Under the pieces are notes generated by a model, which made no database searches, was not told where the DNA came from, and saw nothing but the letters and a program-made list of their open reading frames with translations. A DNA stretch of 64,000 nucleotides. Origin: Naegleria gruberi. Its lineage: Eukaryota. A program made the translations under genes and the position numbers. Of this stretch, positions 1-28,672 are shown one piece after another (the stretch's first letter is position 1; each line of letters starts with the position of its first letter). The stretch lies in assembly GCA_000004985.1 (NCBI GenBank), contig GG738881.1, one strand, 5' to 3'.

Positions 1-1468
1 GGATCTTCGTTTAACCAGAGTTTTAAAATATGGAATAGCTCTATCATTATTCTCAAAGTATTGATCATATTCAGGTGTATTAGAATAAAATGCAACAAAA
101 TCCAAACAGTATTCTTTGATTTGATTCAAATAGGAATTATTGTTATCAGAATCTCTATTCTGATAATTAGTAATTGTGTAGACAATATTTAACACACTTT
201 TCATATCGATCATGGAAATAATTGATTCCAATAACTCATTTTGAAATTTAGACATTTCATTTGATACTTTATCCAATATAAATAATACAAATAACTTTTG
301 TTTGATAGTTGTAAATGTGATTTCTGGATTGTAAATTAATTTATCTATCAGTAATTGTAATATTTCAGATTCACTATTGTTAAGTGATCGAATAAACTCC
401 TCATTTAGCAATACATTTTCCAAGAATTTAGGTGCAATAATATTAATGATATCTTTAAAAACAATAATGTGACTATTTGGTAATTTGTCATATTCATATT
501 TCTTGAAATGAATTATTTGTAAAATTTGTTCTGGTAAGATCAAGTCTTTGTCAACGATAATATTAGGTTGGCATAACAATAATTTAGCAATTTCAAAATG
601 TTGTTTCTCTACAGTGATTCTTAATGGATTCTAATGGCATTAATTGACTAACTTATAGATATACCTACATCCTTATATTTTTAGAATCAATGATATTATT
701 GACACTTACTTTCTAATATATTATTAAAAACAATATTTTAAACTAAAACTTACTTGCTAATATACTTTCAATATTAATATTCATATTCAATACTTACTTT
801 CTAATTTGTTTTTAGAATTAGACGAAGCTATTACTTACATACTGATATTGTTAAATTTAATAAAATAATCATTACTTACAAGCTAAAAACAATTAATATT
901 AAACTAATTTAATACTTACTTCCTAATAAACTTCAGACTACCAAAAATATTAATGTAATACATACGTACTAATTGTGTTAGCACAATTAAACATTTACTT
1001 ACAACCTATTTAAATTAATAATTGTATAATGATTGAATACGTACATACTATGTATTCAATAGTAAAAACACGATTGATTCGACACTTACTTTCTAGAAAA
1101 TTGTTAATATGCAAATAAATATATAATACTTGCTTCCTTATAATTTACTAGTAAATAATAGAATTGTAATTAATACTCACAGACTTAATTATTTAAATAA
1201 TTATTTAAATAATAATTTAAATACTTACTCCTAAATTGACATCAACATTCGGGACAGTCAACAATAATTTAACGATTTCCAAATGTCCCCTCTCGCAAGC
1301 TACATACAACAAGGTTTTTCCCAACGAAAATACCTTAAATTGGTAAGAATTGAAATAAAAATCATTAATGATCGGAGCCAAATCAAACTTTAACAATTCA
1401 GCAACATTTCCATCCTCCACCACTTGTAAAATTTTGTGTTTGTCAACAACTTCCACACCTCTTCTCAT
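1..1468 (-). CDS. Ankyrin-repeat protein, partial. The gene runs off the window start. The 5' coding exon is 1468..1229 and the large 3' exon is 630..1. They are joined through the intron/microexon array at 631..1228.
   Basis: ORF 1217..1468 holds an ankyrin consensus (LLYVACERGHLEIVKLLLTVPNVDVN). A GTAAGT donor follows ...NVDVNLG directly. The minus-strand frame 630..1 is open with no start and translates NPLRITVEKQHFEIAKLLLCQPNIIVDKD... (next ankyrin repeat), preceded by a CCATTAG acceptor. The frame is continuous across the putative splices. Confidence 0.6.
631..1228 (-). other. Tandem array of 11 short introns (37-84 nt) separated by ten 3-nt in-frame spacers (putative 1-codon microexons).
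   Basis: On the minus strand the pattern (T)TAG-NNN-GTAAGT recurs ten times. The 3-nt spacers lie at plus 710-712, 754-756, 798-800, 839-841, 880-882, 920-922, 1003-1005, 1090-1092, 1135-1137 and 1181-1183. Donors are GTAAGT eight times, GCAAGT once and GTGAGT once. Acceptors are TAG, CAG or AAG. Interior sequences of the units are unrelated AT-rich DNA. Phase 0 is kept throughout, linking ...NLG to NPLRI.... Confidence 0.5.
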
Positions 1469-1880
1469 TTTTTTCTAGAACGTGATTGGATGAAACTCAT
1501 TAATTGTAAGTTGACACGATAGTTAACGTGTTTCATCAGGAGTATTTCCATTAATTGATATTTTGCATTTCATAGAGTGTAAATGGATGATGTGAATTAT
1601 CATTCTCCGAAATATTTTCTTGAATTGTCACTTGTCCAAAATTTACAAAATATTATATTTTAGCAAACAATTGTATGCACCGACAATTATTTCCAAAACA
1701 AATCCTTGCAAGTTGTTTGGAATATCTTCCTCATTCAATGCAACTCCGTCATCAATATCCAATAGTACCTTTCGAATTTGTTCTTTGGACCATAAACATG
1801 CGCATGTTAAGGCAGCAAAGGCTCTTATTGTTCTTTTGTATTTATTTTTACAATGAAATATCTGCAACAAGAAAAAAAGT

Positions 1881-1954
1881 TGGGGTCAGTGAGGATCGAA
1901 CTCACGACCTTAGGATTATGAGACCTACGCGCTACCGACTGCGCCATGACCCCT
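1881..1954 (-). tRNA. tRNA-Met (anticodon CAT), elongator type.
   Basis: Reverse complement reads GGGGTCATGGCGCAGTCGGTAGCGCGTAGGTCTCATAATCCTAAGGTCGTGAGTTCGATCCTCACTGACCCCA. The cloverleaf has a 7-bp acceptor stem and a GTTCGATCC T-arm, and the anticodon loop is CTCATAA. The D- and T-arms are near-identical to metazoan elongator Met. An oligo-T run (A-run at plus 1872-1879) sits just 3' on the minus strand. Confidence 0.9.
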
Positions 1955-2049
1955 ACACAGTAATAATAAGAAATTACAAGTCCTTGATGAATAGGTTTCC
2001 TAAAGTGAAAGCGTAGGTTATTGAATAATTTTATGATTCTAAATTCCTC

Positions 2050-2619
2050 TGGATCAAAGATTGTAATGAGAAGTGGATGGAAAGGAATTTATCTCTTGCT
2101 GTGGTTAAGGAAACCCGCTCAAAACGACCATTCTCTCCGTGCATGTGTATGGCCATTTTTCTGAAATAACAAAATTAAATACTTAATCGAAATGAAATTC
2201 ATATGTTTTTAAGGATTTACATGTAGGAAATGAAATCCTTACAATGCATATGATTTTTTACACTGATAAATGCAATAATACTGTTGGTCAATTGATAGTT
2301 GATAAGGAAGTTTGCGTCGCGGACTTGGGAAGCCAAATTATTACATCCGCACGAAAGTGTTCAAAAACCAATAAAAAGCTTGTTGACCTTATTGGATGAG
2401 ATGGTTGCTGAGGAAAACAAAGTGGCTGCACGATTTACCATGACTGGCACACATGACGGTGTGTTTATGGGAATTCCAGCAAGTGGAAAGAATATTTGTG
2501 TGAAAGCCTCAAATTTTTACACGTTTAAGGATGGTCAGATTGTTGAAGAGTATGGCCAACCTGATTTATTGTCGTTGTTGCAACAAATTGGTGCCATCCC
2601 ACCAGCCAAATTGATTTAG
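2050..2619 (+). CDS. SnoaL-like / ester-cyclase-family protein (bacterial-type). The terminal exon 2299..2619 is secure. An upstream exon around 2050..2148 is tentative, and a possible frameshift makes this a possible pseudogene.
   Basis: ORF 2299..2619 encodes ...DEMVAEENKVAARFTMTGTHDGVFMGIPASGKNICVKASNFYTFKDGQIVEEYGQPDLLSLLQQIGAIP, the conserved C-terminal half of the ester-cyclase fold. It is preceded by a ...CAATTGATAG acceptor. The upstream frame at 2050-2148 (CNEKWMERNLSLAVVKETRSKRPFSP) resembles the N-terminal half but has no clean ATG or junction. Confidence 0.45.
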
Positions 2620-3529
2620 AATGGCTCTTGTAACTAGTGATAATCTACAACCTGTATAAATAGTGGAAAATTCTCGACTTTCAAATGGGTTGAAGAAACG
2701 AACCAGCTCTACCACAAGCTTGTTTGCATAAAATATTTGAATAGAAAGGTGAGAAACCTCAAATGTGGCATTTGTTTTCTCTCAACTAGTGGAATTGTTG
2801 AAATGTCACTTATCTAAATAAAACTTGAAAAAAATTATCGACCTACTTTTTGACATGCCACTTTGCAACAATTACAAGTCATTTATTTCGGCGTTTGGCT
2901 CGGAAAATCAATTATTTTAATAATTAAAAACATGTGAATTTTTATAAAATTGAAACCTTGCTGAACCAAACACTGAAATAAGTGAGTAAATCATCACGTC
3001 CTATTTTGAATTATTTTTACTATTAAATATTTATTTTATAAAATCCCGAATTAAATCTTTCATCGAATGATTTTTCATACAATCCATCAATGGGTGTTTT
3101 ACTGCCTAATTTCAAAATATCACAATGTGAATACTTATACTTTTTGAATAAATAATTTTTTTATTAGGTCACCCATGTGACAATTTTACTTCGGCAAAAA
3201 TAATATTCTAAAAGATTCGGTGTAAAAATACATGTTCAAGCCAAATTTAATGTTTAAAAATAAAAAAGCAAAAAGAGAAAAAATTAACAAGATTTTTCTC
3301 CCTCTCAGAGGCTTTTTATAAAACTCGCATACAACAACACAAAAACAACAAGAAGAATATATAATATTATATTCAACCAACACACTTACACTTTGAACAA
3401 ATATTTGAGAGTGTTTGTTACGTACCCACAACAATAATAACAGCAAAAATAGTCTAGTGGTAATAGCTAAGAATTTAAACCGTTAGAAAACACAATTGTA
3501 TCATATACTCTGCAAAGAAGGACAACAAA

Positions 3530-4296
3530 ATGGATACCACTTGTTATCAGGTAAGGAATTATAATAGATAGATAGGAGACGAAGAGGATTGGATGATTGG
3601 AAATTTATTTTGGTTTTCTTCGTATTATGCAATTTGATGATGAAATAATAATAATTAATTTAATATGATGATAATTAACAAAACAAAAAACAATATTGAA
3701 AAACAATTTAAAAAAACAATAACATGGCAACTATGATCAGGAAGCACAAATTGCCAAGTCATTCATCTCAAACATTTACGATAGTTGGAAAGAAGGAAAA
3801 AAGGATGAATTACAACAATACTATAATGAAAACTCCAAGTTAAGCTGGAATGGACTGATATATAAAGGCATTGATATCATGAAGCTTTTCATGAACATCT
3901 ATCAAAGATTTACTATTACCTCGATAGATTGTCAACCAATTGGTATGTGGTTATAGAGAAATACTCATCAACTGACTCAACAATTAAGACAAGGAACATT
4001 TACTGATCAACGTGACTGGAATTGTAATTTATGATGGAGATAACAAGACAGCTAAGCTATATTCACATCAGATAGTTCTAGAAAGCAAGAATACGAATGG
4101 AACAATAGGAGTTTGTGTAGTTTTAGAAAACTTTAGATGGCTTGCTCCATGCAGTGTGAGAGCAGAACAAGAAATGGCTGACAAACCACAAAAACAACAT
4201 ACACCTAGGAGACAAAATACACCACAAAGAGGAGGTTTCCAAAAAAAGAACTTTTACACTCCTGGAAGAAATCCAAAGTTTCAAAATCAAGAATAA
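3530..4296 (+). CDS. NTF2-like domain protein with a short basic, RGG-containing C-terminal tail. Three exons: 3530..3550, 3741..3942 and about 3989..4296.
   Basis: Exon 1 is ATG GAT ACC ACT TGT TAT CAG followed by GTAAGG. After a 190-nt intron ending ...GATCAG, exon 2 gives EAQIAKSFISNIYDSWKEGKK...NSKLSWNGLIYKGIDIMKLF...SIDCQPI. A GTATGT donor lies at 3943 and an AATTAAG acceptor at 3988. Exon 3 gives DKEHLLINVTGIVIYDGDNKTAKLYSHQIVLE...FRW. Order and spacing match the NTF2 fold (the DHQPTPDSCIISMVVGQ region). Confidence 0.7.
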
Positions 4297-4468
4297 CATG
4301 TAAAAAATATAAACTAGAGAGCTAATTTATTTATTTAAATTGGAAACAAAGTATTTTATTTGTCTTGACTGAATTGAGAAAAATGTTTTATTTAGATAGA
4401 TTATTACCTGTGTGTCTTTACTGCATTTGCATTGAGAAAAAATTCTAATATTTGTTTATGAAGATTAA

Positions 4469-6085
4469 TTACAAAATAAATTGATTCTGGTTCACAGAGA
4501 GAATCATCAATACTCCATCTCCTTGATCTGAAGCTTGTTGTTGAGATTTTGCAATATTAATTTCACTGTGATAATAATCATCTAGAAATGTAGTTGCTTT
4601 GAATCCAAACTTGGTGTAGAGTCTCTGAGCTGGTAAATTGAAAGAGGAAACATGTAATTGAATCCACAAACACTTCTTCCAATATTGAACAAATCCGCTT
4701 TGCATAGTTGGATAGTTATTCCAATATTTACATTCCTCTTCCTCAGTGTCAGCTATTTGGTCAACATTGACAATAACATGTTCATTAGAATTTAAAGATG
4801 AAACATAGTATGTTGTTTCAGAGGTATCTAAATTGCAGGCATTCGTCGTTGGTGTGATTGAATATTGAGAGCTTTGTACTTCATCATTCATTGATCTCCA
4901 CATCCAAGAATAGGTCAGAACATGTTGAATGGTAAATCTTAACAATTCCTGCCCAATTCCATTCTTTCTCAAATCTGGATGAACTGCAAATGAGGTAATT
5001 TCACATCGTTGCTTCTCCTTATTAATATTATAGGTAATGTAACCTGCAACAATGAGAGATCCAAAAATGTTGGTGTTATTCCTAGTACAAGCAACCCAGG
5101 TGAAATTATCAACTGGTTTTTCATGATTATTACATAGAGATTGTTTAAATGCCTGATAGAGATACTTCTTATCTAGTGGTTTTGAAAAGCAAGAGCATTC
5201 AATATCGTACAATGCCTCAAATGTTTGATCTGAGAATGGATAAATGAGAATATCTGCTGTCTTTTCTGTTGGACGAATATCAATCGAGTTGGAAGGAGAA
5301 TTATTTACATGATTTACATCCAATTGATTGGTTTGATCTGGTAAAATATCATTAAAATTGTCAACATAGATACTTTCAGCAATTCTTCTTGGTCTTTTCA
5401 TAATTGGAAGAGCTGATTGTAAGAATACATGATCAGACGGATGTGAAAATGATGAATTATTCGTAGTACTGGAATCAGTTCCACTCGTTACAGACATTGT
5501 ACTGACATTTAGCATCGATCCAGTTGTCTTTCTAATATGATTCTTCATACAAGTTGAGCACAAATCGAAATCTCTACAATTCAAACAGTGAAATCTCGTT
5601 CCATGAATGCTACACTCACATCCATCACAAGTAACACCCTTGTGAACTATCTTCCCCTGAACTATCTGAACTTGTTCCAAATTAAATGAATCAATTGGTT
5701 TGGTAAATAATTCATAATCTTTACAGTATTGATCAGCAACAAGCACTCCATTCTTTGATATTTTCTTATCCAATAATCCAATTCTTTCCAAAAGCGGATA
5801 TTTAAATTTTCTATTCAATACCAAAGCAAAACAATGTCCCTTTTTCTGATGATGTTTACCTTGTTCCTTTTTACAATTTAAACAGAGAGTATAGGCTGTT
5901 TGTTGAGAGGAAAGCGAACAATTTAAACAAATGGACATGATTTGATTTTCATTGATTTTTGATTTACAATTTTGACATGTACATTGATCGCTCCGATGAT
6001 GAATATCATTATTGAGAGGATGACCGGTCGAGGAAGAAAAAATGTGATTTCGAGAAGTAGCAGCAGGTTGGCGCAAATTGTTCAT
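4469..6085 (-). CDS. ZZ-type zinc-finger plus GNAT-family N-acetyltransferase protein (538 aa, single exon).
   Basis: Uninterrupted 538-aa ORF. The ZZ finger is CDGCECSIHGTRFHCLNCRDFDLCSTC. The C-terminal GNAT fold has the acetyl-CoA motif ...VHPDLRKNGIGQELL... and ...TKFGFK.... The N-terminus has further Cys clusters. Confidence 0.8.
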   Translation of the reverse strand: MNNLRQPAATSRNHIFSSSTGHPLNNDIHHRSDQCTCQNCKSKINENQIMSICLNCSLSSQQTAYTLCLNCKKEQGKHHQKKGHCFALVLNRKFKYPLLERIGLLDKKISKNGVLVADQYCKDYELFTKPIDSFNLEQVQIVQGKIVHKGVTCDGCECSIHGTRFHCLNCRDFDLCSTCMKNHIRKTTGSMLNVSTMSVTSGTDSSTTNNSSFSHPSDHVFLQSALPIMKRPRRIAESIYVDNFNDILPDQTNQLDVNHVNNSPSNSIDIRPTEKTADILIYPFSDQTFEALYDIECSCFSKPLDKKYLYQAFKQSLCNNHEKPVDNFTWVACTRNNTNIFGSLIVAGYITYNINKEKQRCEITSFAVHPDLRKNGIGQELLRFTIQHVLTYSWMWRSMNDEVQSSQYSITPTTNACNLDTSETTYYVSSLNSNEHVIVNVDQIADTEEEECKYWNNYPTMQSGFVQYWKKCLWIQLHVSSFNLPAQRLYTKFGFKATTFLDDYYHSEINIAKSQQQASDQGDGVLMILSVNQNQFIL

Positions 6086-6157: not shown

Positions 6158-6238
6158 CGTTGAGGATGGGATTCGAACCCACGCGGATTACTCCACCAAC
6201 TTAGCAGGCTGGCGCCTTAACCACTCGGCCACCTCAAC
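6158..6238 (-). tRNA. tRNA-Ser (anticodon GCT).
   Basis: Reverse complement reads GTTGAGGTGGCCGAGTGGTTAAGGCGCCAGCCTGCTAAGTTGGTGGAGTAATCCGCGTGGGTTCGAATCCCATCCTCAACG. It has the long variable arm typical of Ser and anticodon loop CTGCTAA. A T-run terminator follows (A-run at plus 6151-6157). It lies about 70 bp upstream of the ZZ-GNAT start codon. Confidence 0.9.
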
Positions 6239-6377: not shown

Positions 6378-9300
6378 TTAAATATCTTCTCCTGCTGGAC
6401 TAATCATTATGGAAATCTTATCCAAATCATTGCCAATAGATATGGAAGACCTATTTGGACGCATCACAATTGGATTCACATGATGTTTCTCCTTTACAAG
6501 ATATGTTTTACATTCACCTTTTCCTTTTACCGAAACTTTTCTTTCTTCAAATTCGAATAAATCGTATGTTCTTTCGTAGGTACTTCGAGAAAGTTGGATT
6601 CGTCCTGGTACCCCAGTAGATTCCATTCTTGAGGAAGTATTGATGGTATCTCCCCATAAGTCTGTTTTTAATTATAAATATTCAATATTTTTGTAACAAA
6701 TTGTAATGCATAGTTAAAATATCGAAAAACATACCATAGGCAAATTTCTTTCTTCCAATCACACCAGCAATAACTCCTCCAGTATTCAATCCAATTCTAA
6801 CATTCAATTGTGAATCTAAATTTTCAGAATTATATGAACGGATTACTGACAAGGTGTCAATTGCAAATCTCAAAGTTCTTTCTGGATGATCGGATTGAGC
6901 ATTCACACCATGCAATCCTCCAACACAAAAATACGAATCCCCAATTGTTTTTATCTTTTCCAAATTGTATTTATCTGTCAAATCATCAAATCCGTTTACA
7001 ATTCTATTAAGCATTAGAACTAGCTCAGAAGGATTCATGTTAGAACTCAAATTTGTAAATCCAACCCTAAATAGATTATTTTCTAATAAATTCAAGGAAC
7101 TTACATATCACTGAAATAACAAGTAATGTCAGAAAATCTTTCGGCAATGAAAGTTTCTCCATTTTTAAGTTTCGTCGCAACTTCTTCTGGAAGAATGTTC
7201 CTTAATAAATTTTCAGAATTTTTCTTCTCCTCCGCAAGTAAACTATTCTGTTTCTTTTCCATTGTAATGTCCTTAATAAATAGAGAAACAAATGAGCTAT
7301 TGTTAATTTCAGTTCCAAAAATGCTCACTTTGGCGGGAAATTTACTCGAATTCTTTCGAATACAATCAATTTCCAATACTTCTCCCAATTCATTTTCTTC
7401 CCCTTTCGTATGGTATTTGAATTCGCCAGTTGCTTTCTTCATCAATTCGTGAAAAGACGGATCAAAGAGTGTTGTGAAGGATAAACCCAAAACGTCAACT
7501 GCTGATTTTCCAAACATTTTCTGAGCTGCAATATTGATAAATGTCACTTCTCCTCTTTCATTACATGTGACAGCTCCTTCTACCATTGAATTGAGAAGAT
7601 TCTTAATGGCATCGTCATATTCAGTCTTTCGTTTCACATGTGAACTATTAGAAAGTGTATTATTCACAATGAAATTCTTCAAAATATCATTCGAATCTAA
7701 ATAATCTATTGGAATGTAATTCAAAAACGTTCTCAATGTGGTAATATCATAATCAGTTGTGTGAAAGCTCATATAAATGTAATAATTAAAAGCAATCAAG
7801 AAGAAAAATCCAAACACAAAGAATACAATACTAATCACTTTCGATGATGAAGTAGAAGAAAGTGTTGTCAACAATTCCAATAATCTCTCAATCATTTCAT
7901 CTGTCATGTTAAATATACTGAGATAGTACAAAAAAGTGTCAGGTGCCTTTGCATAGAATGGATTCAAAATATCTTCATTGAATTTTGAACACAAATGAAG
8001 AACAGTTGCAACTAATTCTTGTAAATCATAACACGTTCCATTTAGACATGTAAGTGGAGCAGTAATTACCTCGTCAACTCCTGGATATTTGTTGAATATT
8101 GAGCTTGTCAAATTTCCACCGAATAAAAGTTCTGCAAATTGAGATTGTGCTTCAGAAATGTAGATGCGATTATCAGAGTGGTATGTATCTAGATTGGATT
8201 GATTGGCTAATGCAGGATCGTTAACAGAATGCCCTGACTTGATACCATAAAAGGCAAACAATTCACCCAATCGGACATTTAATCTTGTGCAAGCTCTTAT
8301 CACTGATGTGGCTGTGTCCACATTGACCATGGCCTGAGATGACATGGCCACATTCAGATTATTTTCCACATACATAAATGAAATACAAAGTGAAAATACT
8401 ATTAAGGAAAGAAAACCAATACTAAGGGACATGAATTTTGGACTAACTACCCTTCTCAAATGTTTCACTTCCTGAGTGGACCGTTTTTGAAGATCATGAT
8501 AGACGGATCCGACGAATTCTTTGGGAATCTTACTGAATAGGTTGATTATTCGAGAAGATTTAGACATTCCAATTCTGGAAATTATTAAAAATGTTCCATA
8601 AATGATAATTAATACAAATGTGGAAGTAAATAAGTAAATTCTCAAAATTCTATCAAGTAGCAAATTCTGAGCCCTCTTTCTAATCTGAAATTTTGAACAA
8701 AAAAGACCATTCGCCTCACTTGCAGCTCTTCTATTAAGGTAAGTATACATAAATTCATAAGATTTGATCGTTTCATTGTAATTCTTCCAATTGTAAATAA
8801 TTTTCGTGTTGGATATGAATTCTCTCGTCAACTCACTCATGGAAATGTTCTTCTTGTAGCTCGTCGTGTAAACTCTATCACTGGTGCTTACACTTGCTGT
8901 AGGAACAACAATCGGATTAATCACAGCTTTGTAATCTTCAACCATTTGTGTTGTAAACTGTGGTGATATTGAATTAGCAGCTAGATTTTGTAAATATTGC
9001 AAAATCCTTTTCAATCTACGTTGGTGATTATTCAGAAAATATTGAATAGTTTCATATTCAGAGGAATTCACAGCTGGTTGACTAATATTTAGATTATTGT
9101 AAAGCTCATTGTAAATTTGTCCCATTCTCACTTCACGCATCAAACTTGAAGGACTCGTTCCAGGTAAGCAAGAATCCAAAGATAATGGAATTTCCGTAAC
9201 TAAACTTCCCAAAACAATGCAAAGAATGAATGCAATTAAAAGTAAAACTATCTGAAACAAGGCTAAACCAATTAATGTGTAATTTCGTACTTTGGATTGA

Positions 9301-10970
9301 TAGGGAGTGTTAAGAGCGTTTCTAATAAAGAGATGTTTCTTTTCTGTGGATCCAGCCACTTCAATTCCTTCAAATTTTTCCTCCTCCAACTCAATCATGG
9401 TATTTCGTCTATTTTCTAATAAAGTATTTGGAGGTGTAATCATACTATTGGCAATACTAAAATGCTTTTCAGTTTTTGGTTTCGTCTTTTTCTCAAACTT
9501 TTTAACAATTGGCTGAGCTTTCGACTCTTCCTCTTCCAACTGAAAAGCTTGTTCGAATAAATCAGCAGCTGTTTCCTTGTCAAACTTGAAATTCTCTAAA
9601 TAACTTGCATAAAACCTCAACACTGTCTTATCGTGTTTAAAATTTGTCATTAAATGTTTAAATCTCTCATCACAATACAAGGTCAATGCAGTTGTACGAG
9701 AGATTAGTTGATTGATCTTAATTTCATTAGGTAGGTCAGAAATTATTTCCTTCCAAAACATGCGATGGATTGACCACAACTCATCCTGTTGTTTTTCCAG
9801 ATCGTGGAGCATGGTTTTGATTTCTACTTGATTAATTCCGTGAGTTTTAGTTGAGCTGTAAACTTCAATTTCTTTCATTCTTTCCATAATTAGAATTCTT
9901 GTCCAGCCATTGTTACAGAAGCGTTTTGCCTTTTTTAGAATGTAGGTAGCATAGGAAGAACTGTTTTCATCGTTCCAATANNNNNNNNNNNNNNNNNNNN
10001 NNNNNNNNNNNNNNNNNNNNNNNNNNNNNNNNNNNNNNNNNNNNNNNNNNNNNNNNNNNNNNNNNNNNNNNNNNNNNNNNNNNNNNNNNNNNNNNCCAAT
10101 TCGTTGTCTCCACACTCGTATCCTACTATGGACCTTTCCTTTCAAAGTTCTAAACTCGGTCACAAGTATGGCCATGAAGATAAAGTACATGGCCATGAGA
10201 ACACTAGTAATGGCAATTTTCGCCGTATATCCAATTGCATCCAATGAAAGTGTGATAGGATAATTGAGTACACGGAACACCCAACTAGCATACTGTCCAT
10301 ACGGATTTTCCTTAATATAATTGGTATTCGAAAGTGGATAATTACTTCTCTCTGAAGAAAGTGTTGGAAATATCAAATTAACCCAATACATGTACATGTA
10401 GAAACCAAAAATCAACACCCTCTCAAACATTCGAATCTCAGTTTCACTCGTTTTCACAGTCAAGTAAAAGTTTGCCAATTTTTCATTGAATAATTGAAAG
10501 ACTGAAGTTGGTGCACCACTCGAAGTTGTTAAAACATTATTGAAAGAGGACATGTTATCGGATGCTGTTGCTGGATTATTTCCTCCTCCAACTCCTGCTA
10601 TGGATAAATCGTACTGTGTATTTGTTGCTTGTGTTGGGCTGACAATTTGAATATTAGTTGAATTGTTATTGCTAATAGGAGTGGTTATTATGGTTGTGGT
10701 TGTGGAGTTTTTGTTGTTGTTGTTGTTATTCAGCTGATAAATTCCGCTACCACTCGAGGAATTAAGGAAATTAATATTGTTATTGTGATTAACATTGTTA
10801 TTGTTGTCGTTTGGTAATGTTGGAGAGGAAGTTAATGTAATTAGTGGAATGCTCATATCATCGCTTGCTTGTTGTTGAAGCATCGTCGTTGCTAAAGTAG
10901 AGACTTGTGGTGAAGATGAAGATGAAGAAGTGTTATCAACAATATTGCTCATCATCCTATGTTTTTTCAC
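6378..10970 (-). CDS. Multi-pass membrane class III nucleotidyl (adenylate/guanylate) cyclase with a PAS domain. Exons are 10970..7105 (interrupted by the assembly gap), 7066..6735 and 6661..6378.
   Basis: The 1289-aa ORF has many hydrophobic segments and a PAS-like block (VTCNERGEVTFINIAAQKMFGKSAVDVLGLSF...) followed by a coiled-coil region. It ends ...ERFSDITCYFSD|GTAAGT. After a 38-nt intron, exon 2 gives (M)VGFTNLSS...GDSYFCVGGLHG...RIGLNTGGVIAGVIGRKKFAY|GTATGT. After a 73-nt intron, exon 3 gives DLWGDTINTSSRMESTGVPGRIQLSRSTYE...KGKGECKTYLV, the canonical cyclase catalytic motifs. Confidence 0.8.
9981..10095. other. Assembly gap (115 N) inside the large cyclase ORF.
   Basis: Literal run of n characters. 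The ORF track shows X residues at this position. Confidence 0.99.
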
Positions 10971-21320: not shown

Positions 21321-22475
21321 TTAAATAGTTTCGAAATCCACTGTTTCAATTCTTGTTAATTTGTAAGCTTTTGATTCATTAATCTTTACAATGACAGTAC
21401 CATTAATATCCAATTTTTCAAATTCCTCTCGTAACTTATCAAGTGTCTCCTTATCCATGTTTGTATCTTTAGCATGTTGTTCCAATTCTTCAACAGAAAG
21501 AGCAACCAGTGGAAATATTGTGTATCTGGTTTCTAGAATGCTTTTGTAATGATCAACTGCTGAATCTATCAGTAAACTCATCAAGAACTTGGGAGCACAC
21601 TTGGCTTCTATTTTTCTTGCTTCGATCAGTGTTTGAAAATAGGCATCTCTATTCTTAAACATTGGAAATGGAAATGGACAACACCAGTCCAATATTCTCT
21701 TTGAAATTAATCTACACAGTCTTCCATTACCATCTGGGAAAGGATGAATGTCGACAAAATGGAATTGTGCAAAGGCAGCTAATGCAAATACATATAAAAG
21801 CTGTTTTTCACAGTTTTCAGGATAGCATTTGGTAATTGCTTGACTGAGTGAGTAAACATCATTGCACAATAGTCTTGTGGTTGATTTTACAATAGTGTGT
21901 TTAGGATAAGTATGAGTAATTCCATTATATGAAGAAGCTTCGCTACCATGATCTCTATACTCCATTTTGGCATTTGGTATGACAATGCCAAACCATTTCT
22001 TCAAGGATGATTCATCAAAAATTACAGAGGATATCATCTTGTTTTTGTAATTTTCCTTTCTGAAAGTTTCGTTTAATAATGACAATGTGATCATAACAGC
22101 CTCGATCTCTTGTTCGTTACTGGAATCCAATTGATTGTTCAGAATCTTTTCCGTGTCTTCAAGTGAGCTTGGTCCAACATTTTCAATCATATTAGTATAA
22201 TATATCCATTCACAAACCGAGTGAGGAATTGAGGACGAAATGAGGTTTTCATTACCTTCAACCTCTTCTAACAGGCGACAAAACTCTCCAATTTTATTCT
22301 CTTCAAACTCATCAGCAAATCCAAGCAATTCCTCTAAATAAAATCTTGCTTTTTCTTCAATATCTGCAGGTGGTGTGCCGAGCTTTTCGTGCACCTCCAT
22401 CAAACAACAACTTTGAGGACCATTATCAAGGCACGATAAATATTCAGTGGTGTGCATTTTTTTTGAGGTGTACAT
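21321..22475 (-). CDS. Fic (filamentation induced by cAMP)/Doc-family domain protein, a putative AMPylase-type enzyme.
   Basis: Single 384-aa ORF with the canonical Fic active-site motif HPFPDGNGRLCR (HxFx[DE]GNGRxxR) in FHFVDIHPFPDGNGRLCRLISKRIL. Confidence 0.8.
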   Translation of the reverse strand: MYTSKKMHTTEYLSCLDNGPQSCCLMEVHEKLGTPPADIEEKARFYLEELLGFADEFEENKIGEFCRLLEEVEGNENLISSSIPHSVCEWIYYTNMIENVGPSSLEDTEKILNNQLDSSNEQEIEAVMITLSLLNETFRKENYKNKMISSVIFDESSLKKWFGIVIPNAKMEYRDHGSEASSYNGITHTYPKHTIVKSTTRLLCNDVYSLSQAITKCYPENCEKQLLYVFALAAFAQFHFVDIHPFPDGNGRLCRLISKRILDWCCPFPFPMFKNRDAYFQTLIEARKIEAKCAPKFLMSLLIDSAVDHYKSILETRYTIFPLVALSVEELEQHAKDTNMDKETLDKLREEFEKLDINGTVIVKINESKAYKLTRIETVDFETI

Positions 22476-22585: not shown

Positions 22586-24514
22586 ATGAAACAATTGAAT
22601 GCTAGAGGATTATTTGAAAATTCTAAAGTGTCGGAAAGTAATCATCAGTGTGTTTTAGATTTATCCCTCTCTTCAAAATTACTTTCCACTAAAATTCAAG
22701 ACATTCCACAGAAAGATAAATATGAAATAATTATAAAACCACTATTCGAATATTGTTTCGGAACGAGTGATGATTCTGTTTGGGAGAAACTAAATGATGA
22801 TGAAGAGGAATACGAAAGTGATGATAATGACCACGATGAAGAGGAAGATGAAAGAATTGATGAAAATAATGACCAAAATGACACTAGTCAAATAATATAT
22901 TTAAAGATTGATTGGAACAGAGATCGAACTTTTATTCATGGGCAAATATTCAATTTGGTTGTTGGTAAATTTCTCATTTTGGCCAATAAGCTTGGATTGT
23001 GGAAGAATAGATCATTTGTTTTGACTACGACCGAATATAGAGATATTAAAACACTCAAGTATGTGGACGATAATTTCAGGAATGATAGGGAAATTGTAAT
23101 GGCAGCTGTCAACGAAAATGGACGTACCCTTAAATATGCATCGAGTGAATTGAGAAATGATTTTGAAATTGTAAAAACAGCCGCTCGGAATAATCGTCGA
23201 GCACTGTGGTATGCATCGAAACAATTGAGTAGTAATAAGGAAATTGTAATGACAGCTGTTAAAAGTAATGGACTATCTCTTGAATATATGCCTACACAAA
23301 TTAGAAATGACAGAAAAATTGTTAAAATTGCTATACAAGAGAATGGTAATGCACTTGGATATGCTTCAAAAGAATTGAAGAGTGATAAGGAAATTGCCCT
23401 ACTTGCTATAGAATCAAGCCCAAAAGCATATGAATGTGCATCTAATCAATTGACGAATGACCAAGATCTAATTCTTAAAGTGTTGTCCAAATCGTGCGAC
23501 TATATTTTCGGTATTGACCAATCAATTAAGCTATTTAAAAACGATAGAAAATTTATACTTGCTATTGCAAAGTTGGATGGCCTTAAAGCCCTTCGTAATG
23601 CTTCACTGGAATTGAGAGATAATAGAGAGATAGTAATTGAAGCAGTTCAACAAAATCCAAATGCTTTGGTCTATGCATCTAGTGAATTGAGGAATGACAA
23701 GGAGATTGTGAAAATGGCAGTAATGGAAAATGGAAGCTGTTTGACTTTTGCATCAAATGAATTGAAAGATGATAAGGAAATTGCGGAATTGGCATTCAAA
23801 TCTTCTGAAATTGCTGTTCGATATTTTTCTGAAAGATTGAGAAATGATATTGAATTCCTGAGCGGATTTGGAAAGAGAGGTTATTTATTAAAGATTTTAC
23901 CAGATCATTTCATGAATGACAGAGAAATAGTATTGGAAGCAATCAAACTGGACCCACAAATTATTTTGACTCTTCCCAATGAATTGAAAAGAGACAGAGA
24001 ATTTATATTGCAAGCTGTAACAAGATGTGGTATGGCACTTCGTGGAGTGAGTTCAGAATTTCAAAAAGATAGAGAATTAGTTTTGGCTGCAGTAACACAA
24101 AATGGAAATTCAATCAATTTTGCCTCACAAGAAGTTTGGAATGATAAGGAAATTGTTCTGAAAGCTGCCGAAACATGCAATCAAGAACTATTACTTAAAT
24201 TACCAAGTTTCGACAAACAAATTTACCTGCAACTCATCAAAAAACGTGGAGGTGAATGCCTGAAATATTTTCCAAGAAAATTTCAAATAGATAGAGAAAT
24301 TCTAATGGAAGCCTTAAAAACCCATCCTAAAACTGCATTCCTCAATGCTTCTGGCACGTTAAAGGTAATGGATCGAGTATTTGCTATGCGAGTTGTGAAA
24401 AGAGATGGCATGCTTTTAGGTGAAATGTGTTCAAAACACAAAAGTGATAGAGAAATAATTTCCTGTGCAGTCAAACAAAATATCAAAGCACTGAAATATG
24501 CATCCATTGATTGA
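22586..24514 (+). CDS. DUF4116-repeat protein (642 aa) with an acidic N-terminal region.
   Basis: More than 12 tandem units of about 36 aa, of the form ..N(D/E)REIV(L/M)(A/T)AV..NG.AL.YAS.ELR... The ATG at 22586 lies in an A-rich context. It is transcribed divergently from the Fic gene, 110 bp away. Confidence 0.8.
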   Translation: MKQLNARGLFENSKVSESNHQCVLDLSLSSKLLSTKIQDIPQKDKYEIIIKPLFEYCFGTSDDSVWEKLNDDEEEYESDDNDHDEEEDERIDENNDQNDTSQIIYLKIDWNRDRTFIHGQIFNLVVGKFLILANKLGLWKNRSFVLTTTEYRDIKTLKYVDDNFRNDREIVMAAVNENGRTLKYASSELRNDFEIVKTAARNNRRALWYASKQLSSNKEIVMTAVKSNGLSLEYMPTQIRNDRKIVKIAIQENGNALGYASKELKSDKEIALLAIESSPKAYECASNQLTNDQDLILKVLSKSCDYIFGIDQSIKLFKNDRKFILAIAKLDGLKALRNASLELRDNREIVIEAVQQNPNALVYASSELRNDKEIVKMAVMENGSCLTFASNELKDDKEIAELAFKSSEIAVRYFSERLRNDIEFLSGFGKRGYLLKILPDHFMNDREIVLEAIKLDPQIILTLPNELKRDREFILQAVTRCGMALRGVSSEFQKDRELVLAAVTQNGNSINFASQEVWNDKEIVLKAAETCNQELLLKLPSFDKQIYLQLIKKRGGECLKYFPRKFQIDREILMEALKTHPKTAFLNASGTLKVMDRVFAMRVVKRDGMLLGEMCSKHKSDREIISCAVKQNIKALKYASID

Positions 24515-24847
24515 ATTTGAATTGAGGAACTATAAGAAACTATTCAAATTTTCAAAAAGCCACAAACATTTTTGTGGGTTATTAATAAAATTAAATTGAA
24601 AAAATAAAAATACAATTTTGCAACAGCTCGGAATTCGGAAGCACTTTAAAAAAAACACACAACACGTTTTGGTGGCTTGTTTGAGAGAGTTTCTTTTTTT
24701 CATCATCATCATCCACTCACGGAAAAGATATCACTGAGATTTCTCAACACACACAAATTTTATAGTAGTATTTATTAGTATTAATAATATTGTTATTATT
24801 ATTGCGAGAATATATCATCATACAACAAAATCAACAAACACAAAAAG

Positions 24848-26737
24848 ATGGTCAGAGAATTAAAATCCGATGCTGAATTTAATACCGAGTTAGTCAAGGC
24901 AGGTGGTAAACTTGTTGTTGTAGACTTTTTTGCTACATGGTGTGGTCCATGTAAAAAGATTGCACCATATTTTGAACAATTAGAAACACAATATAAGGAT
25001 GTTCTCTTTTTAAAGGTTGATGTGGATATTTGCCAGCAAACAGCTGCCAAGTGCAATATTTCAGCCATGCCAACATTCCAATTATTCAAGAATAGATCCA
25101 AAGTTGAAGAAGTTGTCGGAGGAGATGTTCAAAAACTTGTCCAATTAATTAATCAACACAAGGGTGTTTCATCCTCTTCATCTTCGTCATCATCATCACA
25201 AGTTGAAGATAATGAACCAATACCAAGTCATCTTTCCACTGCGGAACAATTCAAAGAGGAAGGAAACAATAGATACAAGAAGGGATCATACAAAAAAGCT
25301 GTGGAATGTTATACAAGAGCTATTGAATTGGATCCAAGCCAAGCACCAATTTATACTAACAGAGCTGCTTGCAACTTACAATTACTCAAGTATAAGAAGG
25401 TTGTTGAAGATGGTTTAAAGGCTGCTCAATTGGATCCAAAATTCTCAAAGGCGTATCTTCGCGCTGGTCAAGGTTATTTACAAATGGGTAAAACTAGAGA
25501 AGCTAGGGAACAATTCGATTTGGCTCTTAAATTGGAACCAAATAGTGACTTGTATAAGAGAGAAAGAGAAAATTCTCTCAAAATTGAAAAGTACTTGTCG
25601 AATGGTAAGAGCTTTTTAGAACAATCTCTCTATAAGGAAGCTAGTAATGAAATGGATTTGGCATTCCAAATTGCTCCTCACTCAGTGCCATTGAAACTTT
25701 GTAAAATTGAAGCATTGATTGGATTGAAGGAACTTGATACTGCTGCCAAGGAAGCTAGCGTTATTCTTCGTGATATTGACAATAACAATTCCGAAGCTCT
25801 CTTCTTGAGAGGTCAAGCATTGTACTATGCTGGTAGTACCGAAAGTGGATTGAGTCATGTCACTCAAGCTTTAATGATTGATCCAGACAATCAAAAATGT
25901 TTACAATTCAGAAAGCAAATCAAGAAGATTGAACAATTGAAAGAGGAAGGCAACAAACTTTTGCGAGCTGGTAAATTCCAAGAATCCTATGATGAATATT
26001 CTAAAGCCATTGAAATTGATCCAAAGAATGCCAATTTGAATGCAGTTCTTTATTGCAATAGAGCTGCTGCTGCCACTAAACTCGGAAAACATCAAGTAGC
26101 CATCAAGGATGCTACCAAAGCCATTGAATTGAATGAAAATTATACAAAGGCATACATTAGAAGAGGTTCCAGCTATGTTGAACTTGAACAATACGAAGAT
26201 GCCATGCGTGACTATAGTAAGGCCCATGAATTGGACAAGGACGATGAACAAGTTGCACAAAAATTGAAGGAAGTCAGAAAGCTCTACAAGCAAAGCAAGA
26301 AGAAGGACTTTTACAAGATTCTTGGTGTGGAAAGAAATGCCTCTACTGATGAAATCAAAAAGGCCTACAAGAAGTTAGCCATGCAATGGCACCCTGACAG
26401 ATATATGGACGAAGAGGAAAAGAAGAATGCTGAAAATAAGTTTAAGGACATTACAGAGGCATACAGTATTCTCTCTGATCCACAAAAGAGACAACAATTC
26501 GATTCTGGCGCAATGGATGCTGATTTTGATGGTTTTGGTGGAATGGGAGGAGGAATGGGTGGTATTGACCCTAATGACATCTTTAGAATGTTCTTTGGTG
26601 GAGGTGGTATGGGTGGAGGAATGGGAGGTGGATTTGGTGGTATGGGAGGTGGAATGGGAGGAATGGGAGGAATGGGAGGAGGAGGAAGAAGAGGAGGCCG
26701 AGGTGGAATGGGTGGCCAACAATCATTCTTCTTTTAA
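24848..26737 (+). CDS. Thioredoxin - TPR repeats - DnaJ (J domain) co-chaperone with a Gly/Met/Phe-rich tail.
   Basis: Single 629-aa ORF. WCGPC thioredoxin motif ([20 protein letters not shown]). Multiple TPRs ([16 protein letters not shown]..., [13 protein letters not shown]..., [14 protein letters not shown]...). J domain [32 protein letters not shown] with the HPD motif. C-terminal [13 protein letters not shown] repeats. Confidence 0.85.
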
Positions 26738-26806
26738 ACTTTCAAAACTTTCTACCCCAATATAACTCCTCTAATTTATTCTTTTATTCTTTTTAAATTT
26801 ATTAAA

Positions 26807-28672
26807 TCACTTAAATTTATTCTTTTCAACGAAAAATTGTGGCATTAGTTCAATAGTGGCAAGACACTGATTGTAAAGATAGGCCATTTTTTCCTCTCCG
26901 AAAAAAGAATGAAAGTTTGTTTCTTCGGTGGAATATTTGTGACGAATGGTTTGGCAATATTGAGCGAATGGCATTCCATTGTATTGAATATGTTCAAGAG
27001 CATACTTGAAACCATCTAGCATGTGTGGATTCGTTAGGCCTGCATATCCAAGAGATCCAGTGGTATAGGGGTTGAAGAAATCTGCAATTTTTTCAATACA
27101 TTCCACACCTATGGATGGACTAAAGTTGTCAATCATGAGTTTAAATGATTCCCTAACATCATCAAAACCATAATAATCCACAAAGCAAGTAAGCATTTTG
27201 GAATTGATTTCTGATAAAAACTCCAAAGTTATTCCCTTGTAATTATTAAATAGAATATTCAAATCATACTTTGCAGGGTACATCTCAAAGAATGGTTTGA
27301 AAAATTGATTAGGTGAGCTTTTGCAATAGTTTCTAAAGTATGATAAAATAAAGTTAGTATTTCCCGTTTCTGGACTTATTTCATAAGGGTCAAAATTTTC
27401 AATTTTTGATAACAAGTGTGAAATCTTTGAACGGTAGTTGAATCTGTGAAAGATAATCTTTAAATCGATTGGAGTAATCATTCCACGCTCACTTAATAAA
27501 TCAATAATTTCTCTTTCATAACCATATAAAAAGAGACTATGTGATTTGACTCTGGAATAATCAATAGATTTTTCCTCAAAAACTTCCAAAAACTGACAAA
27601 GACTGTTGACAACTTCTTCTGGCGTTTCACATGAGTCAGGACTGAAGAATTCCATAAAATATTTGTCTTTTTGATATCTGAAATGCCACTCAAAACATGT
27701 TTGAAAGTTATCAAGCCATTGATTAGGATAAATAGCATTGAACATCTTTTTTAAATATCTCAATCTCACCATTCTTTTGGTACGTGTCAGCTGCATGAAA
27801 TCAATATATGGATCTTCACTTTTTTCATAATTTCCCTCCACAGAAATATAGTTCAGTAAAAAATCCAAAAAGCTTTCATTTCCATTTTCATCTTCATTCA
27901 CATTCCAATAGGAAATTAAAATCTTTTCCAAAATCTTGTCATTTAGAATTGGTTTGAAATTTTGAACAAAGCAAATTACTTGAGGAGAACAATCATCGTC
28001 TGTTTTCCCAATCTCACCACTCATCACATCAGCAATTGAAAAAGTAAATCGTTTCCAATACTCTTGAGCATAAAGAGAATTATTCACTCGTCCATTCAAT
28101 GTGAACTTTTTAGCTTGGTTAAGGAAATACTGAGCCATATATCCAGAATGTTCATAATTGACCACTCCCTTCGTGAAATCGTGACGAATCTCATCCACTC
28201 CCTTTGCCATCTTCATATTATAGTGCATAATCATGGCAGAGGAGGCCAACTTTTTAAATCTCATCCCAAATACTGTCGATTTCTCTCCCTTCTCTCCATA
28301 CCTATCTTCATCCATATACTTTTCAAAACTTGCCCTACTCACCGATTTTTCCTTCACAATCTGCGATTCATAAAACTTGTTCAATTGACTAATTATTGAC
28401 TTGTACAAATTCCCGCCTTTTTTTTTTCTTTCATGACCCATCACCATCATCAAATCATTTTCATCACCATCATCGGAATGATTTAATTTTCCATAATAAT
28501 CAATCTTTGTTTGTATAAAATTGGACAGCAGTGTTTTCCACACAATTTCAAACCGATCCAATTCGTACCAATTTTTGCAGGTGCAGAGGAGTGAGAGACC
28601 ATCTGCAATGGAGAGAAATTCGAGGATGGCAAAGAGTGTGTCAATGTGAATCTCTGTATTGTTGCTGGACAT
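26807..28672 (-). CDS. F-box-like protein (621 aa); the C-terminal region has no recognisable domain.
   Basis: The N-terminus IDTLFAILEFLSIADGLSLLCTCKNWYELDRFEIVWKTLL is F-box-like. It is a long uninterrupted ORF. Its 3' end is only about 70 bp from the 3' end of the convergent Trx-TPR-J gene. Confidence 0.65.
   Translation of the reverse strand: MSSNNTEIHIDTLFAILEFLSIADGLSLLCTCKNWYELDRFEIVWKTLLSNFIQTKIDYYGKLNHSDDGDENDLMMVMGHERKKKGGNLYKSIISQLNKFYESQIVKEKSVSRASFEKYMDEDRYGEKGEKSTVFGMRFKKLASSAMIMHYNMKMAKGVDEIRHDFTKGVVNYEHSGYMAQYFLNQAKKFTLNGRVNNSLYAQEYWKRFTFSIADVMSGEIGKTDDDCSPQVICFVQNFKPILNDKILEKILISYWNVNEDENGNESFLDFLLNYISVEGNYEKSEDPYIDFMQLTRTKRMVRLRYLKKMFNAIYPNQWLDNFQTCFEWHFRYQKDKYFMEFFSPDSCETPEEVVNSLCQFLEVFEEKSIDYSRVKSHSLFLYGYEREIIDLLSERGMITPIDLKIIFHRFNYRSKISHLLSKIENFDPYEISPETGNTNFILSYFRNYCKSSPNQFFKPFFEMYPAKYDLNILFNNYKGITLEFLSEINSKMLTCFVDYYGFDDVRESFKLMIDNFSPSIGVECIEKIADFFNPYTTGSLGYAGLTNPHMLDGFKYALEHIQYNGMPFAQYCQTIRHKYSTEETNFHSFFGEEKMAYLYNQCLATIELMPQFFVEKNKFK

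What the first reader, a model, noticed from the sequence alone, without database searches (positions are those of the whole stretch)
2050..2619. Bacterial-type SnoaL/ester-cyclase-like gene next to a tRNA gene: candidate horizontally acquired gene, possibly decaying
The C-terminal exon matches the ester-cyclase (SnoaL-like polyketide cyclase) family, which is overwhelmingly prokaryotic. The match is the block DEMVAEENKVAARFTMTGTHDGVFMGIPASGKN...FKDGQIVEEYGQPDLLSLLQQIGAIP. The N-terminal half is recognisable upstream (CNEKWMERNLSL...PFSP) but lacks a clean start and needs a frameshift or a non-obvious splice.

The gene sits about 100 bp downstream of a tRNA-Met gene on the other strand. Together with the Fic, DUF4116 and 2H-phosphoesterase genes in this window, it hints at a genome with appreciable bacterial-like gene content.
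Basis: inference. Interest (0 to 1): 0.5.

Follow-up and report, generated by a model that had tools for sequence, protein, structure and literature searches.

The report
Truncated bacterial-type SnoaL pseudogene in Naegleria
The amoeba Naegleria gruberi carries the dead back half of a small bacterial-type enzyme gene: a 222-base deletion removed its start and first 65 codons, while a closely related environmental Naegleria still has the whole gene, an ordinary case of a borrowed gene being lost.

Summary
The C-terminal SnoaL block is real. Window 2392-2619(+) encodes residues 66-140 of a 140-aa SnoaL-like protein (Pfam PF07366, E 9.6e-21, profile positions 60-126 only).

That peptide lies in window-specific intergenic insertions and matches neither Pfam nor the family profile.

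The window is Naegleria gruberi: a neighbouring ORF is 100% identical to an annotated N. gruberi protein. A metagenome contig (L001) comes from a Naegleria that is about 99% identical to the window at another locus. L001 carries the same tRNA-Met / upstream / 3'-flank block with an intact, intronless 140-aa gene.

Against L001, the window has one clean 222-bp deletion. It removes 26 bp of leader, the ATG and codons 1-65, which form all three N-terminal helices of the predicted alpha+beta barrel. No intron or frameshift is needed; this is a 5'-truncated pseudogene.

All close relatives are bacterial (56-68% identity; Acidobacteriota, Bacteroidota, Proteobacteria, Firmicutes). Nothing related lies within 10 kb of the neighbouring gene's orthologue in N. 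fowleri or N. lovaniensis. Bacterial origin is therefore well supported, but the donor is unresolved.

This is an ordinary finding: horizontal acquisition followed by decay. It is unresolved whether L001 is the allele or a paralogue of the window copy.

The parts
2392..2619 (+). Remnant of the SnoaL-like (ester-cyclase family) gene: codons 66-140 plus the TAG stop. It is 100% identical in protein to residues 66-140 of the intact 140-aa protein P0001.
   Evidence: Pfam SnoaL profile positions 60-126 only. There are 2 synonymous and 0 non-synonymous differences from L001 over 75 codons.
2391..2393 (+). Deletion scar. Window ...GACCTTAT|T|GGATGAG... corresponds to L001 1232 joined to L001 1455. 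222 bp are missing (L001 1233-1454: 26 bp of leader, the ATG and codons 1-65), with 1 nt (T) of microhomology at the junction.
2222..2391 (+). Retained 5' upstream region of the former gene. It aligns to L001 1027-1232 at about 93% identity and lacks 32 bp that L001 has. It holds several out-of-frame ATGs.
2620..2764 (+). Retained 3' flank or 3' UTR of the former gene, with 4 mismatches in 145 bp against L001. Similarity to L001 ends abruptly at 2764.
1881..1953 (-). Elongator-type tRNA-Met(CAT) gene, identical in L001 (781-853) and part of the same shared block.
1789..2764 (.). The whole block shared with metagenome contig L001 (L001 673-1826). Sequence on both sides of it is unrelated between the two contigs.
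2064..2163 (+). It is made largely of 47-bp and 35-bp segments absent from L001 and is not part of the gene.

Best explanation
Window 2392-2619 is a 5'-truncated, non-functional remnant of a small intronless gene for a SnoaL-like (NTF2-like alpha+beta barrel) protein. An ancestor in the Naegleria gruberi lineage acquired this gene from bacteria.

A single 222-bp deletion with 1 nt of junction microhomology (consistent with an end-joining-type event) removed the last 26 bp of the leader, the start codon and codons 1-65. Those residues form the three N-terminal helices that make up half of the substrate pocket. What is left encodes only the beta-sheet. It has no proper start: the first in-frame ATG, at 2401, would give 72 aa and is preceded by out-of-frame ATGs.

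A very closely related environmental Naegleria still has the complete gene in the same tRNA-Met-linked sequence block. The loss is therefore recent and specific to this copy.

Shown here: the homology, the deletion, the host identity, and the bacterial affinity of all close relatives. Inferred: the direction and age of the transfer, loss of function, and the deletion mechanism.
For: Host. ORF 4469-6085(-) is 100% identical over 100% of its length to 'predicted protein [Naegleria gruberi]'. Another window protein has N. fowleri (79%) and N. lovaniensis (74%) as its best named hits.

Intact copy. P0001 (140 aa) is identical to the window over residues 66-140. It is encoded without introns on L001. 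L001 comes from metagenome sample ERZ929261. The same sample holds contig L003, which is collinear with window 23815-29395 with 0.65% coding substitutions.

Deletion. L001 and the window align through the tRNA-Met, the upstream region and the 3' flank, with one 222-bp gap exactly over the 5' end of the gene.

Intact gene looks functional. P0001 covers Pfam SnoaL positions 2-126 of 126. It keeps all 40 invariant columns of a 32-sequence family alignment. Its AlphaFold2 model is confident (pLDDT 91.9), with helices at 3-17, 20-26 and 44-58, and it matches SnoaL-fold structures at TM 0.81-0.83.

Bacterial origin. The 27 GTDB genome hits are all bacteria at 54-67% identity over most of the protein (up to 79% on short partial matches), spread over several phyla. 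The best JGI metagenome hit over most of the protein is 68%. None of the top 120 protein hits comes from a eukaryote source set. P0002 sits in an operon-like run of overlapping ORFs. The Naegleria sequence lies inside the bacterial set on a long terminal branch. tblastn finds no homologue, and there is no tRNA gene, within 10 kb of the neighbouring gene's orthologue in N. fowleri or N. lovaniensis. The coding sequence has GC 42.8% and GC3 37.6%, against 34.8 +/- 1.6% and 29.9 +/- 2.9% for 20 window ORFs.
Against: - L001 and the window share only about 1.0-1.15 kb. Both flanks are unrelated. The shared intergenic parts are more diverged (3-6%) than intergenic DNA in the L003 comparison (1.6-1.8%). 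L001 may therefore be a paralogous locus rather than the allele, and an intact copy could still exist elsewhere in this genome.
- The deletion rests on one assembly; reads were not available.
- The retained coding part shows only synonymous changes (2 of 2). That is too few to tell neutrality from constraint.
- The synteny test in N. fowleri and N. lovaniensis covers only +/-10 kb, and local gene order there differs.
- The donor lineage is unresolved (best sister support 27 of 60 bootstraps).
Confidence: 0.85

Rival explanations
1. One reading: a full-length gene is still present, split into an upstream N-terminal part (CNEKWMERNLSL...PFSP) and a C-terminal exon, joined by a frameshift or unusual splice.
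For: Only that frame 1 has an open stretch upstream, and that the 106-aa ORF extends 5' of the homologous block.
Against: - The upstream peptide has no Pfam hit.
- It has no similarity to the true N-terminus or to the family profile (probability 0.17%).
- It lies in insertions absent from L001.
- The intact relative has no intron.
- The true N-terminal 65 codons are not anywhere in the 64-kb window.
Confidence: 0.02
2. The window copy is a decayed duplicate. L001 represents a different (paralogous) locus, and N. gruberi keeps an intact SnoaL gene elsewhere. This would be loss of a redundant copy, not loss of the function.
For: Homology to L001 stops abruptly on both sides of a block of about 1 kb. 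Intergenic divergence inside the block is 2-3 times that of the L003 comparison. The N. gruberi annotation has gaps: the 629-aa DnaJ/TPR gene in this window has no N. gruberi entry in the protein collection.
Against: No N. gruberi protein resembling P0001 is in the protein collection, although N. gruberi proteins are included. P0001 is known from a single metagenome contig. Large intergenic indels also occur in the clearly orthologous L003 comparison, for example one of about 190 bp.
Confidence: 0.25
3. The remnant is still used: a 72-aa beta-sheet protein translated from ATG 2401, for example a dominant partner or a new small protein.
For: The upstream region that would hold the promoter is largely retained. 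The frame is open from 2401 to 2619, and the only differences from L001 are synonymous.
Against: - The fragment lacks all three helices of the barrel, so it is unlikely to fold alone.
- An out-of-frame ATG at 2396 and others upstream precede the start.
- Two synonymous changes carry no statistical weight.
- No such product is on record.
Confidence: 0.05
4. The deletion is an assembly artefact of the reference scaffold, and the real genome has the intact gene here.
For: The window comes from a draft assembly with a gap (N run at 9981-10095). Reads could not be inspected.
Against: The junction is clean, with no Ns or repeats near it. Assemblers do not normally drop 222 bp of unique sequence. Other, independent indels distinguish the two copies in the same region.
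Confidence: 0.05
5. The gene is an old, vertically inherited eukaryotic gene rather than a bacterial acquisition.
For: SnoaL-like domains do occur in some eukaryotes. The Naegleria sequence sits on a long branch, and its GC3 is fairly close to the host's.
Against: All close relatives are bacterial. No eukaryote-source hit is in the top 120. The gene is absent from the region examined in two other Naegleria genomes. It has no intron.
Confidence: 0.05

Closest known systems
Bacterial 'ester cyclase' / SnoaL-like proteins of about 139 aa (Pfam PF07366). Examples are Paraflavisolibacter caeni, Serratia plymuthica, and Acidobacteriota and Mucilaginibacter homologues.
   Same: Same length and the same single-domain architecture. 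Identity to the intact Naegleria protein is 56-68%. All family-invariant residues are shared.
   Different: The window copy lacks residues 1-65. The Naegleria gene sits in a eukaryotic chromosome beside a tRNA-Met gene, has host-like AT-rich flanks, and lies on a long branch. The function of this bacterial subfamily is itself untested. Its neighbours in bacteria are LysR- or HxlR-type regulators and oxidoreductases, not polyketide synthase clusters.
SnoaL / AknH / DnrD anthracycline methyl-ester cyclases, and TsrD (PDB 1sjw, 2f98, 5x7l).
   Same: Same alpha+beta barrel fold. The predicted model matches at TM 0.81-0.83, and sequence E-values range from 1.9e-13 (TsrD) to 4e-4 (SnoaL).
   Different: Sequence identity is only 19-30%. 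The protein scores 38 bits against a cut-off of 200 for NCBIfam NF033407. There is no polyketide pathway context. Conservation of the catalytic residues was not tested.
SnoaL-like polyketide cyclase genes transferred from bacteria into Pythium (oomycetes), PMC5023847.
   Same: A bacterial SnoaL-like gene resident in the genome of a soil or water protist, flanked by host genes.
   Different: The Pythium proteins have two SnoaL domains and a signal peptide, are multi-copy and are retained. Here there is a single domain, no signal peptide was noted, and the copy is truncated.
Other bacterial-derived genes reported in Naegleria gruberi (genome paper by Fritz-Laylin et al. 2010, cited from my own knowledge and not read here).
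   Same: A phagotrophic amoeboflagellate holding intronless bacterial-type genes.
   Different: This locus is a pseudogene. As far as the searchable literature shows, it has not been described.

Membership tests
Pfam SnoaL (PF07366), SnoaL-like polyketide cyclase domain | Score above the gathering threshold | tested here: met
   Window ORF: 74.4 bits against 28.4. Intact P0001: 109.7 bits.
Pfam SnoaL (PF07366), SnoaL-like polyketide cyclase domain | Complete domain (profile positions about 1-126) | tested here: not met
   The window copy covers positions 60-126 only. The intact relative covers 2-126. The window sequence is therefore a fragment of a member, not a complete member.
NTF2-like / SnoaL alpha+beta barrel fold | Three N-terminal helices packed on a curved beta-sheet that forms a pocket | tested here: not met
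   The intact P0001 model has helices at 3-17, 20-26 and 44-58 plus four long strands, and matches 1sjw and 5x7l at TM 0.81-0.83. The window remnant starts at residue 66 and lacks all three helices.
SnoaL/DnrD methyl-ester cyclase subfamily (NCBIfam NF033407) | Score at or above the curated cut-off of 200 bits | tested here: not met
   21.5 bits for the window ORF and 38.1 bits for intact P0001.
SnoaL/DnrD methyl-ester cyclase subfamily (NCBIfam NF033407) | Catalytic acid/base residues of SnoaL and a polyketide biosynthetic gene cluster context | not tested
   Residue-level mapping onto 1sjw was not done. Bacterial homologues examined show no polyketide synthase neighbours, and Naegleria has none nearby.
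Ketosteroid isomerase-related protein (TIGR02096) | Score at or above the curated cut-off of 97.1 bits | tested here: not met
   47.9 bits and 67.8 bits.
Prokaryote-to-eukaryote horizontally transferred gene | Physically integrated in host DNA, not contamination | tested here: met
   The remnant lies between a eukaryotic tRNA-Met and N. gruberi genes on one scaffold. The same context appears in the independently assembled L001.
Prokaryote-to-eukaryote horizontally transferred gene | Nested within prokaryotic homologues and absent from related eukaryotes | tested here: inconclusive
   All close hits are bacterial. The NJ tree places the gene inside bacteria, but the sister group is unresolved. 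It is absent from +/-10 kb of the syntenic anchor in N. fowleri and N. lovaniensis. Whole genomes of other eukaryotes were not searched, and no maximum-likelihood tree with eukaryote sampling was made.
Unitary or truncated pseudogene | A disabling lesion relative to an intact close homologue | tested here: met
   A 222-bp deletion removes the ATG and codons 1-65 relative to L001.
Unitary or truncated pseudogene | No expression, or neutral evolution | not testable with these tools
   No RNA-seq or reads were available. Only 2 substitutions fall in the retained codons.

The most novel reading that the evidence does not exclude
The block of about 1.15 kb holding tRNA-Met plus the SnoaL gene is a unit that has been duplicated or moved within Naegleria genomes. 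Its homology ends abruptly on both sides. On this reading, a bacterial-derived gene travels with a tRNA gene, and the two copies (one intact, one truncated) capture turnover of an acquired gene within a single species complex.
Probability: 0.12. Interest if true: 0.45.

Novelty: new member of a known kind. Interest (0 to 1): 0.22.

Why it matters
The value is mostly in annotation and bookkeeping.

- The stretch should be annotated as a SnoaL-like pseudogene, not as a split gene.
- It adds one dated example of a bacterial gene in Naegleria gruberi that is intact in one close strain or locus and broken in the reference.
- Such intact/truncated pairs are useful calibration points for how fast acquired genes are lost in phagotrophic protists. 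They also show how reference lab strains (NEG-M is axenically adapted; this is my own knowledge) can under-represent the gene content of wild relatives.
- It does not bear on any major open question.

Tried and rejected
- The true N-terminal 65 residues were searched for in all six frames of the window (tblastn, word size 2, E up to 100). No credible match turned up near the locus or anywhere else.
- Pfam scans of the upstream frame-1 and frame-3 peptides gave nothing. The profile comparison gave no match.
- Exact-sequence look-ups found no record for the Fic ORF, the N. gruberi neighbour protein, the ankyrin-like ORF at 1217-1468 and the 72-aa remnant. The N. gruberi annotation and a second contig of the metagenome strain could therefore not be fetched.
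- The JGI metagenome scan found only bacterial-type relatives (at most 68% identity over most of the protein) and no second Naegleria-like copy.
- The search of 1.84 billion representatives confirmed a very large family (15,039 clusters at E <= 1e-3). Its top ranks are multi-domain repeats without names, so it added nothing on taxonomy.
- An NJ tree with 60 bootstraps did not resolve the donor. Candidate sisters were P0002 (27/60) and Dysgonomonas (18/60), probably pulled together by long branches and AT bias. A first attempt with Biopython distances timed out.
- The literature has no relevant paper on Naegleria plus SnoaL, and PRJEB11402 was not found.
- I considered tRNA-targeted integration as the route of acquisition. 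Nothing supports it beyond adjacency.
- I considered a chimeric assembly of L001. I rejected it because Naegleria-matching sequence flanks the extra 222 bp on both sides within one continuous ORF.

Full report
**What is in the sequence**

The region 1500-3300 is AT-rich. That ORF hits Pfam SnoaL (PF07366) at E 9.6e-21, 74.4 bits against a gathering score of 28.4. The match covers only profile positions 60-126 of 126.

The NCBIfam models for the SnoaL/DnrD methyl-ester cyclases and for ketosteroid-isomerase-related proteins are hit far below their cut-offs. ARAGORN finds tRNA-Met(CAT) at 1881-1953(-). The C-terminal observation and the tRNA neighbour are therefore real.

**Whose genome this is**

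The window has 33.5% GC, long ORFs with N/Q/S runs, and one assembly gap at 9981-10095.

- The ORF at 4469-6085(-) is 100% identical over its full length to "predicted protein [Naegleria gruberi]" on a 379,849-bp contig.
- The Trx-TPR-DnaJ protein at 24848-26737 has N. fowleri (79%), N. lovaniensis (74%) and Acrasis kona (50%) as its best named hits.

The window is Naegleria gruberi.

**The key comparison**

A protein search with the ORF returned one hit identical over the C-terminal 75 residues: P0001, 140 aa, from an ENA metagenome. It was followed by hundreds of proteins of about 139 aa at 65-76% identity over that part. Those that carry names are bacterial "ester cyclases".

P0001 is encoded, without interruption, at 1259-1681 of a 1,887-bp contig, L001 (sample ERZ929261). 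The same sample holds L003. L003 is collinear with window 23815-29395, with 0.65% substitutions in coding DNA and 1.6-1.8% in intergenic DNA. That metagenome therefore contains a Naegleria very close to the window's strain.

L001 aligns to the window as follows.

| L001 | Window | Content |
|---|---|---|
| 673-956 | 1789-2066 | includes an identical tRNA-Met |
| 1027-1175 | 2222-2368 | upstream region |
| 1209-1232 | 2370-2393 | upstream region, up to the deletion |
| 1455-1826 | 2393-2764 | 98.4% identical; retained coding part and 3' flank |

The only part of the L001 gene with no counterpart in the window is L001 1233-1454. This is 222 bp: 26 bp of leader, the ATG and codons 1-65. The junction reads GACCTTAT-T-GGATGAG, and the single T is attributable to either side.

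tblastn with the missing 65 residues finds nothing credible anywhere in the 64 kb.

The peptide CNEKWMERNLSL...PFSP (about 2064-2160) fails every test.

- It has no Pfam hit.
- It gives no match to the family profile (hhalign probability 0.17%).
- It lies in 47-bp and 35-bp segments that L001 lacks.

The 106-aa ORF matches the family profile only from its residue 30 onward (probability 100%). No intron, frameshift or splice is involved. The 5' half of an intronless gene has simply been deleted.

**Is the intact version a working gene, and what did the deletion remove?**

P0001 looks like a working gene.

- It covers Pfam SnoaL positions 2-126 of 126.
- It keeps all 40 invariant columns of an alignment with 31 homologues.
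- Its AlphaFold2 model is confident: pLDDT 91.9, pTM 0.83. The model has helices at 3-17, 20-26 and 44-58, strands at 63-72, 75-85, 99-111 and 114-122, and a helix at 124-130.
- Foldseek matches TsrD (5x7l, TM 0.83), IdmH, AclR, SnoaL (1sjw, TM 0.81) and AknH. Sequence-level PDB hits agree.

The deletion removes all three helices and the start of the first long strand, that is, half of the barrel that forms the pocket.

The first in-frame ATG left in the window is at 2401. It would give 72 aa and is preceded by an out-of-frame ATG at 2396 and by others upstream. Loss of function is inferred from this; it was not measured.

In the retained 75 codons the two copies differ at two synonymous sites and no non-synonymous site. 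That is too few to test for constraint, but it fits a recent deletion.

**Origin**

- In one genome per GTDB species, 27 loci encode relatives. Those matching most of the protein are 54-66% identical; two short partial matches reach 67% and 79%. All are bacteria: Acidobacteriota, Chitinophagaceae, Mucilaginibacter, Flavobacterium, Dysgonomonas, Pseudomonas, Rhizobium, Novosphingobium, Paenibacillus and Ectobacillus.
- JGI metagenomes give 74 loci. Those matching most of the protein reach at most 68% identity, and none is Naegleria-like.
- None of the top 120 protein hits comes from a eukaryote source set, although N. gruberi proteins are in that collection.
- P0002, the next-best hit after P0001, lies in a run of overlapping ORFs typical of a bacterial operon.
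- An NJ tree puts the Naegleria protein inside the bacterial set. Its terminal branch is long (0.286 against a median of 0.05) and its sister group is unstable.
- Within 10 kb of the orthologue of the neighbouring ZZ/GNAT gene in N. fowleri and N. lovaniensis there is no SnoaL homologue and no tRNA gene.
- The coding sequence is somewhat GC-richer than 20 ORFs of the window: GC 42.8% against 34.8 +/- 1.6%, and GC3 37.6% against 29.9 +/- 2.9%. Possible donors range from 25 to 76% GC3, so composition does not date the event.

Taken together, a bacterium-to-Naegleria transfer on the N. gruberi branch is the best reading. The donor is unknown, and the long branch argues against a very recent transfer. 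A comparable transfer of SnoaL-like genes into Pythium has been published (PMC5023847).

**Function of the family**

Even the intact protein misses the curated cut-offs of NF033407 (38 bits against 200) and TIGR02096 (68 bits against 97). In bacteria its neighbours are LysR- or HxlR-type regulators, an NADP-oxidoreductase-like gene and short-chain dehydrogenases, not polyketide synthase clusters. It is a generic SnoaL-like small-molecule enzyme of unknown substrate. "Ester cyclase" is a name given by homology.

**What remains open**

Similarity between L001 and the window stops abruptly at window 1789 and 2764. The 672 bp to the left and the 61 bp to the right in L001 match nothing in the window.

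Intergenic divergence inside the block (3-6%) is higher than in the L003 comparison. L001 could be the allele in a region full of indels, or it could be a paralogous copy of a block of about 1.15 kb holding tRNA-Met plus SnoaL. In the second case an intact copy might exist elsewhere in this genome.

The reference annotation is incomplete: the DnaJ gene of this window has no N. gruberi entry. Its silence on a P0001-like protein is therefore weak evidence. Reads were not available to verify the deletion. Look-ups aimed at finding a second metagenome contig for this locus found nothing.

**Verdict**

This is a 5'-truncated pseudogene of a bacterial-derived SnoaL-like gene in Naegleria gruberi, with an intact counterpart in a close environmental relative. 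This is a new instance of a well-known kind of event, and its interest is low to moderate.

Noticed in passing
window 24848-26737 (+): An uninterrupted 629-aa thioredoxin-TPR-DnaJ ORF has orthologues in N. fowleri and N. lovaniensis but no N. gruberi entry in the protein collection. Its only near-identical match is a metagenome protein (P0121, 627 aa). It may be a gene missed or mis-modelled in the reference annotation.
   Followed up: partly
window 9981-10095: A run of N (assembly gap) lies inside the long ORF 7101-10970(-), which looks like a membrane adenylate/guanylate cyclase-type protein. The gene model there is incomplete.
   Followed up: no
window 21321-22475 (-), 22586-24514 (+), 32283-34811 (-), 59261-60298 (-): Pfam confirms the Fic domain (E 3.8e-9), two proteins with 12-13 DUF4116 repeats (E 1e-132 and 5e-109), and a 2'-5' RNA ligase / 2H-phosphoesterase domain (E 2.8e-38). 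Whether any of them is of bacterial origin was not tested.
   Followed up: partly
window 1-4468: About 4.4 kb at the start of the window is unusually gene-poor and AT-rich (27-31% GC) for this dense genome. It holds only the tRNA-Met, the SnoaL remnant, an 83-aa ankyrin-repeat ORF fragment (1217-1468, minus strand; Pfam Ank E 5e-6) and short ORFs with no family. This may be a zone of decayed or rearranged sequence.
   Followed up: partly
window 45536-45607 (+) and 6158-6238 (-): A second tRNA-Met(CAT), unrelated in sequence to the first and with an A1:U72 end typical of eukaryotic initiator tRNA, and a tRNA-Ser(GCT) next to the ZZ/GNAT gene. Neither tRNA is present in the corresponding N. fowleri or N. 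lovaniensis regions.
   Followed up: partly
L004 (ENA ERZ27315067, contig k141_1710759): A metagenome contig encodes the orthologue of the window's DnaJ gene at 74% protein and 75.6% nucleotide identity. It is probably another, unsequenced Naegleria-like species.
   Followed up: no
L108 10001-13104 (N. lovaniensis) against L106 10001-13949 (N. fowleri): In N. lovaniensis the ZZ/GNAT gene is annotated as fused to the downstream cytochrome-b5-reductase-like gene (854 aa). In N. fowleri the two are separate genes. In the N. gruberi window no reductase gene follows at all, so local gene order differs between species.
   Followed up: no
window 2176-2208 equivalent; L001 1176-1208: L001 has 32 bp (CATAGTATGTGGCAAGACTGTCAGTCTTCTCA) in the upstream region of the gene that the window lacks. 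This is a second lesion, or an insertion in L001, close to the 222-bp deletion. Its polarity is unknown.
   Followed up: no
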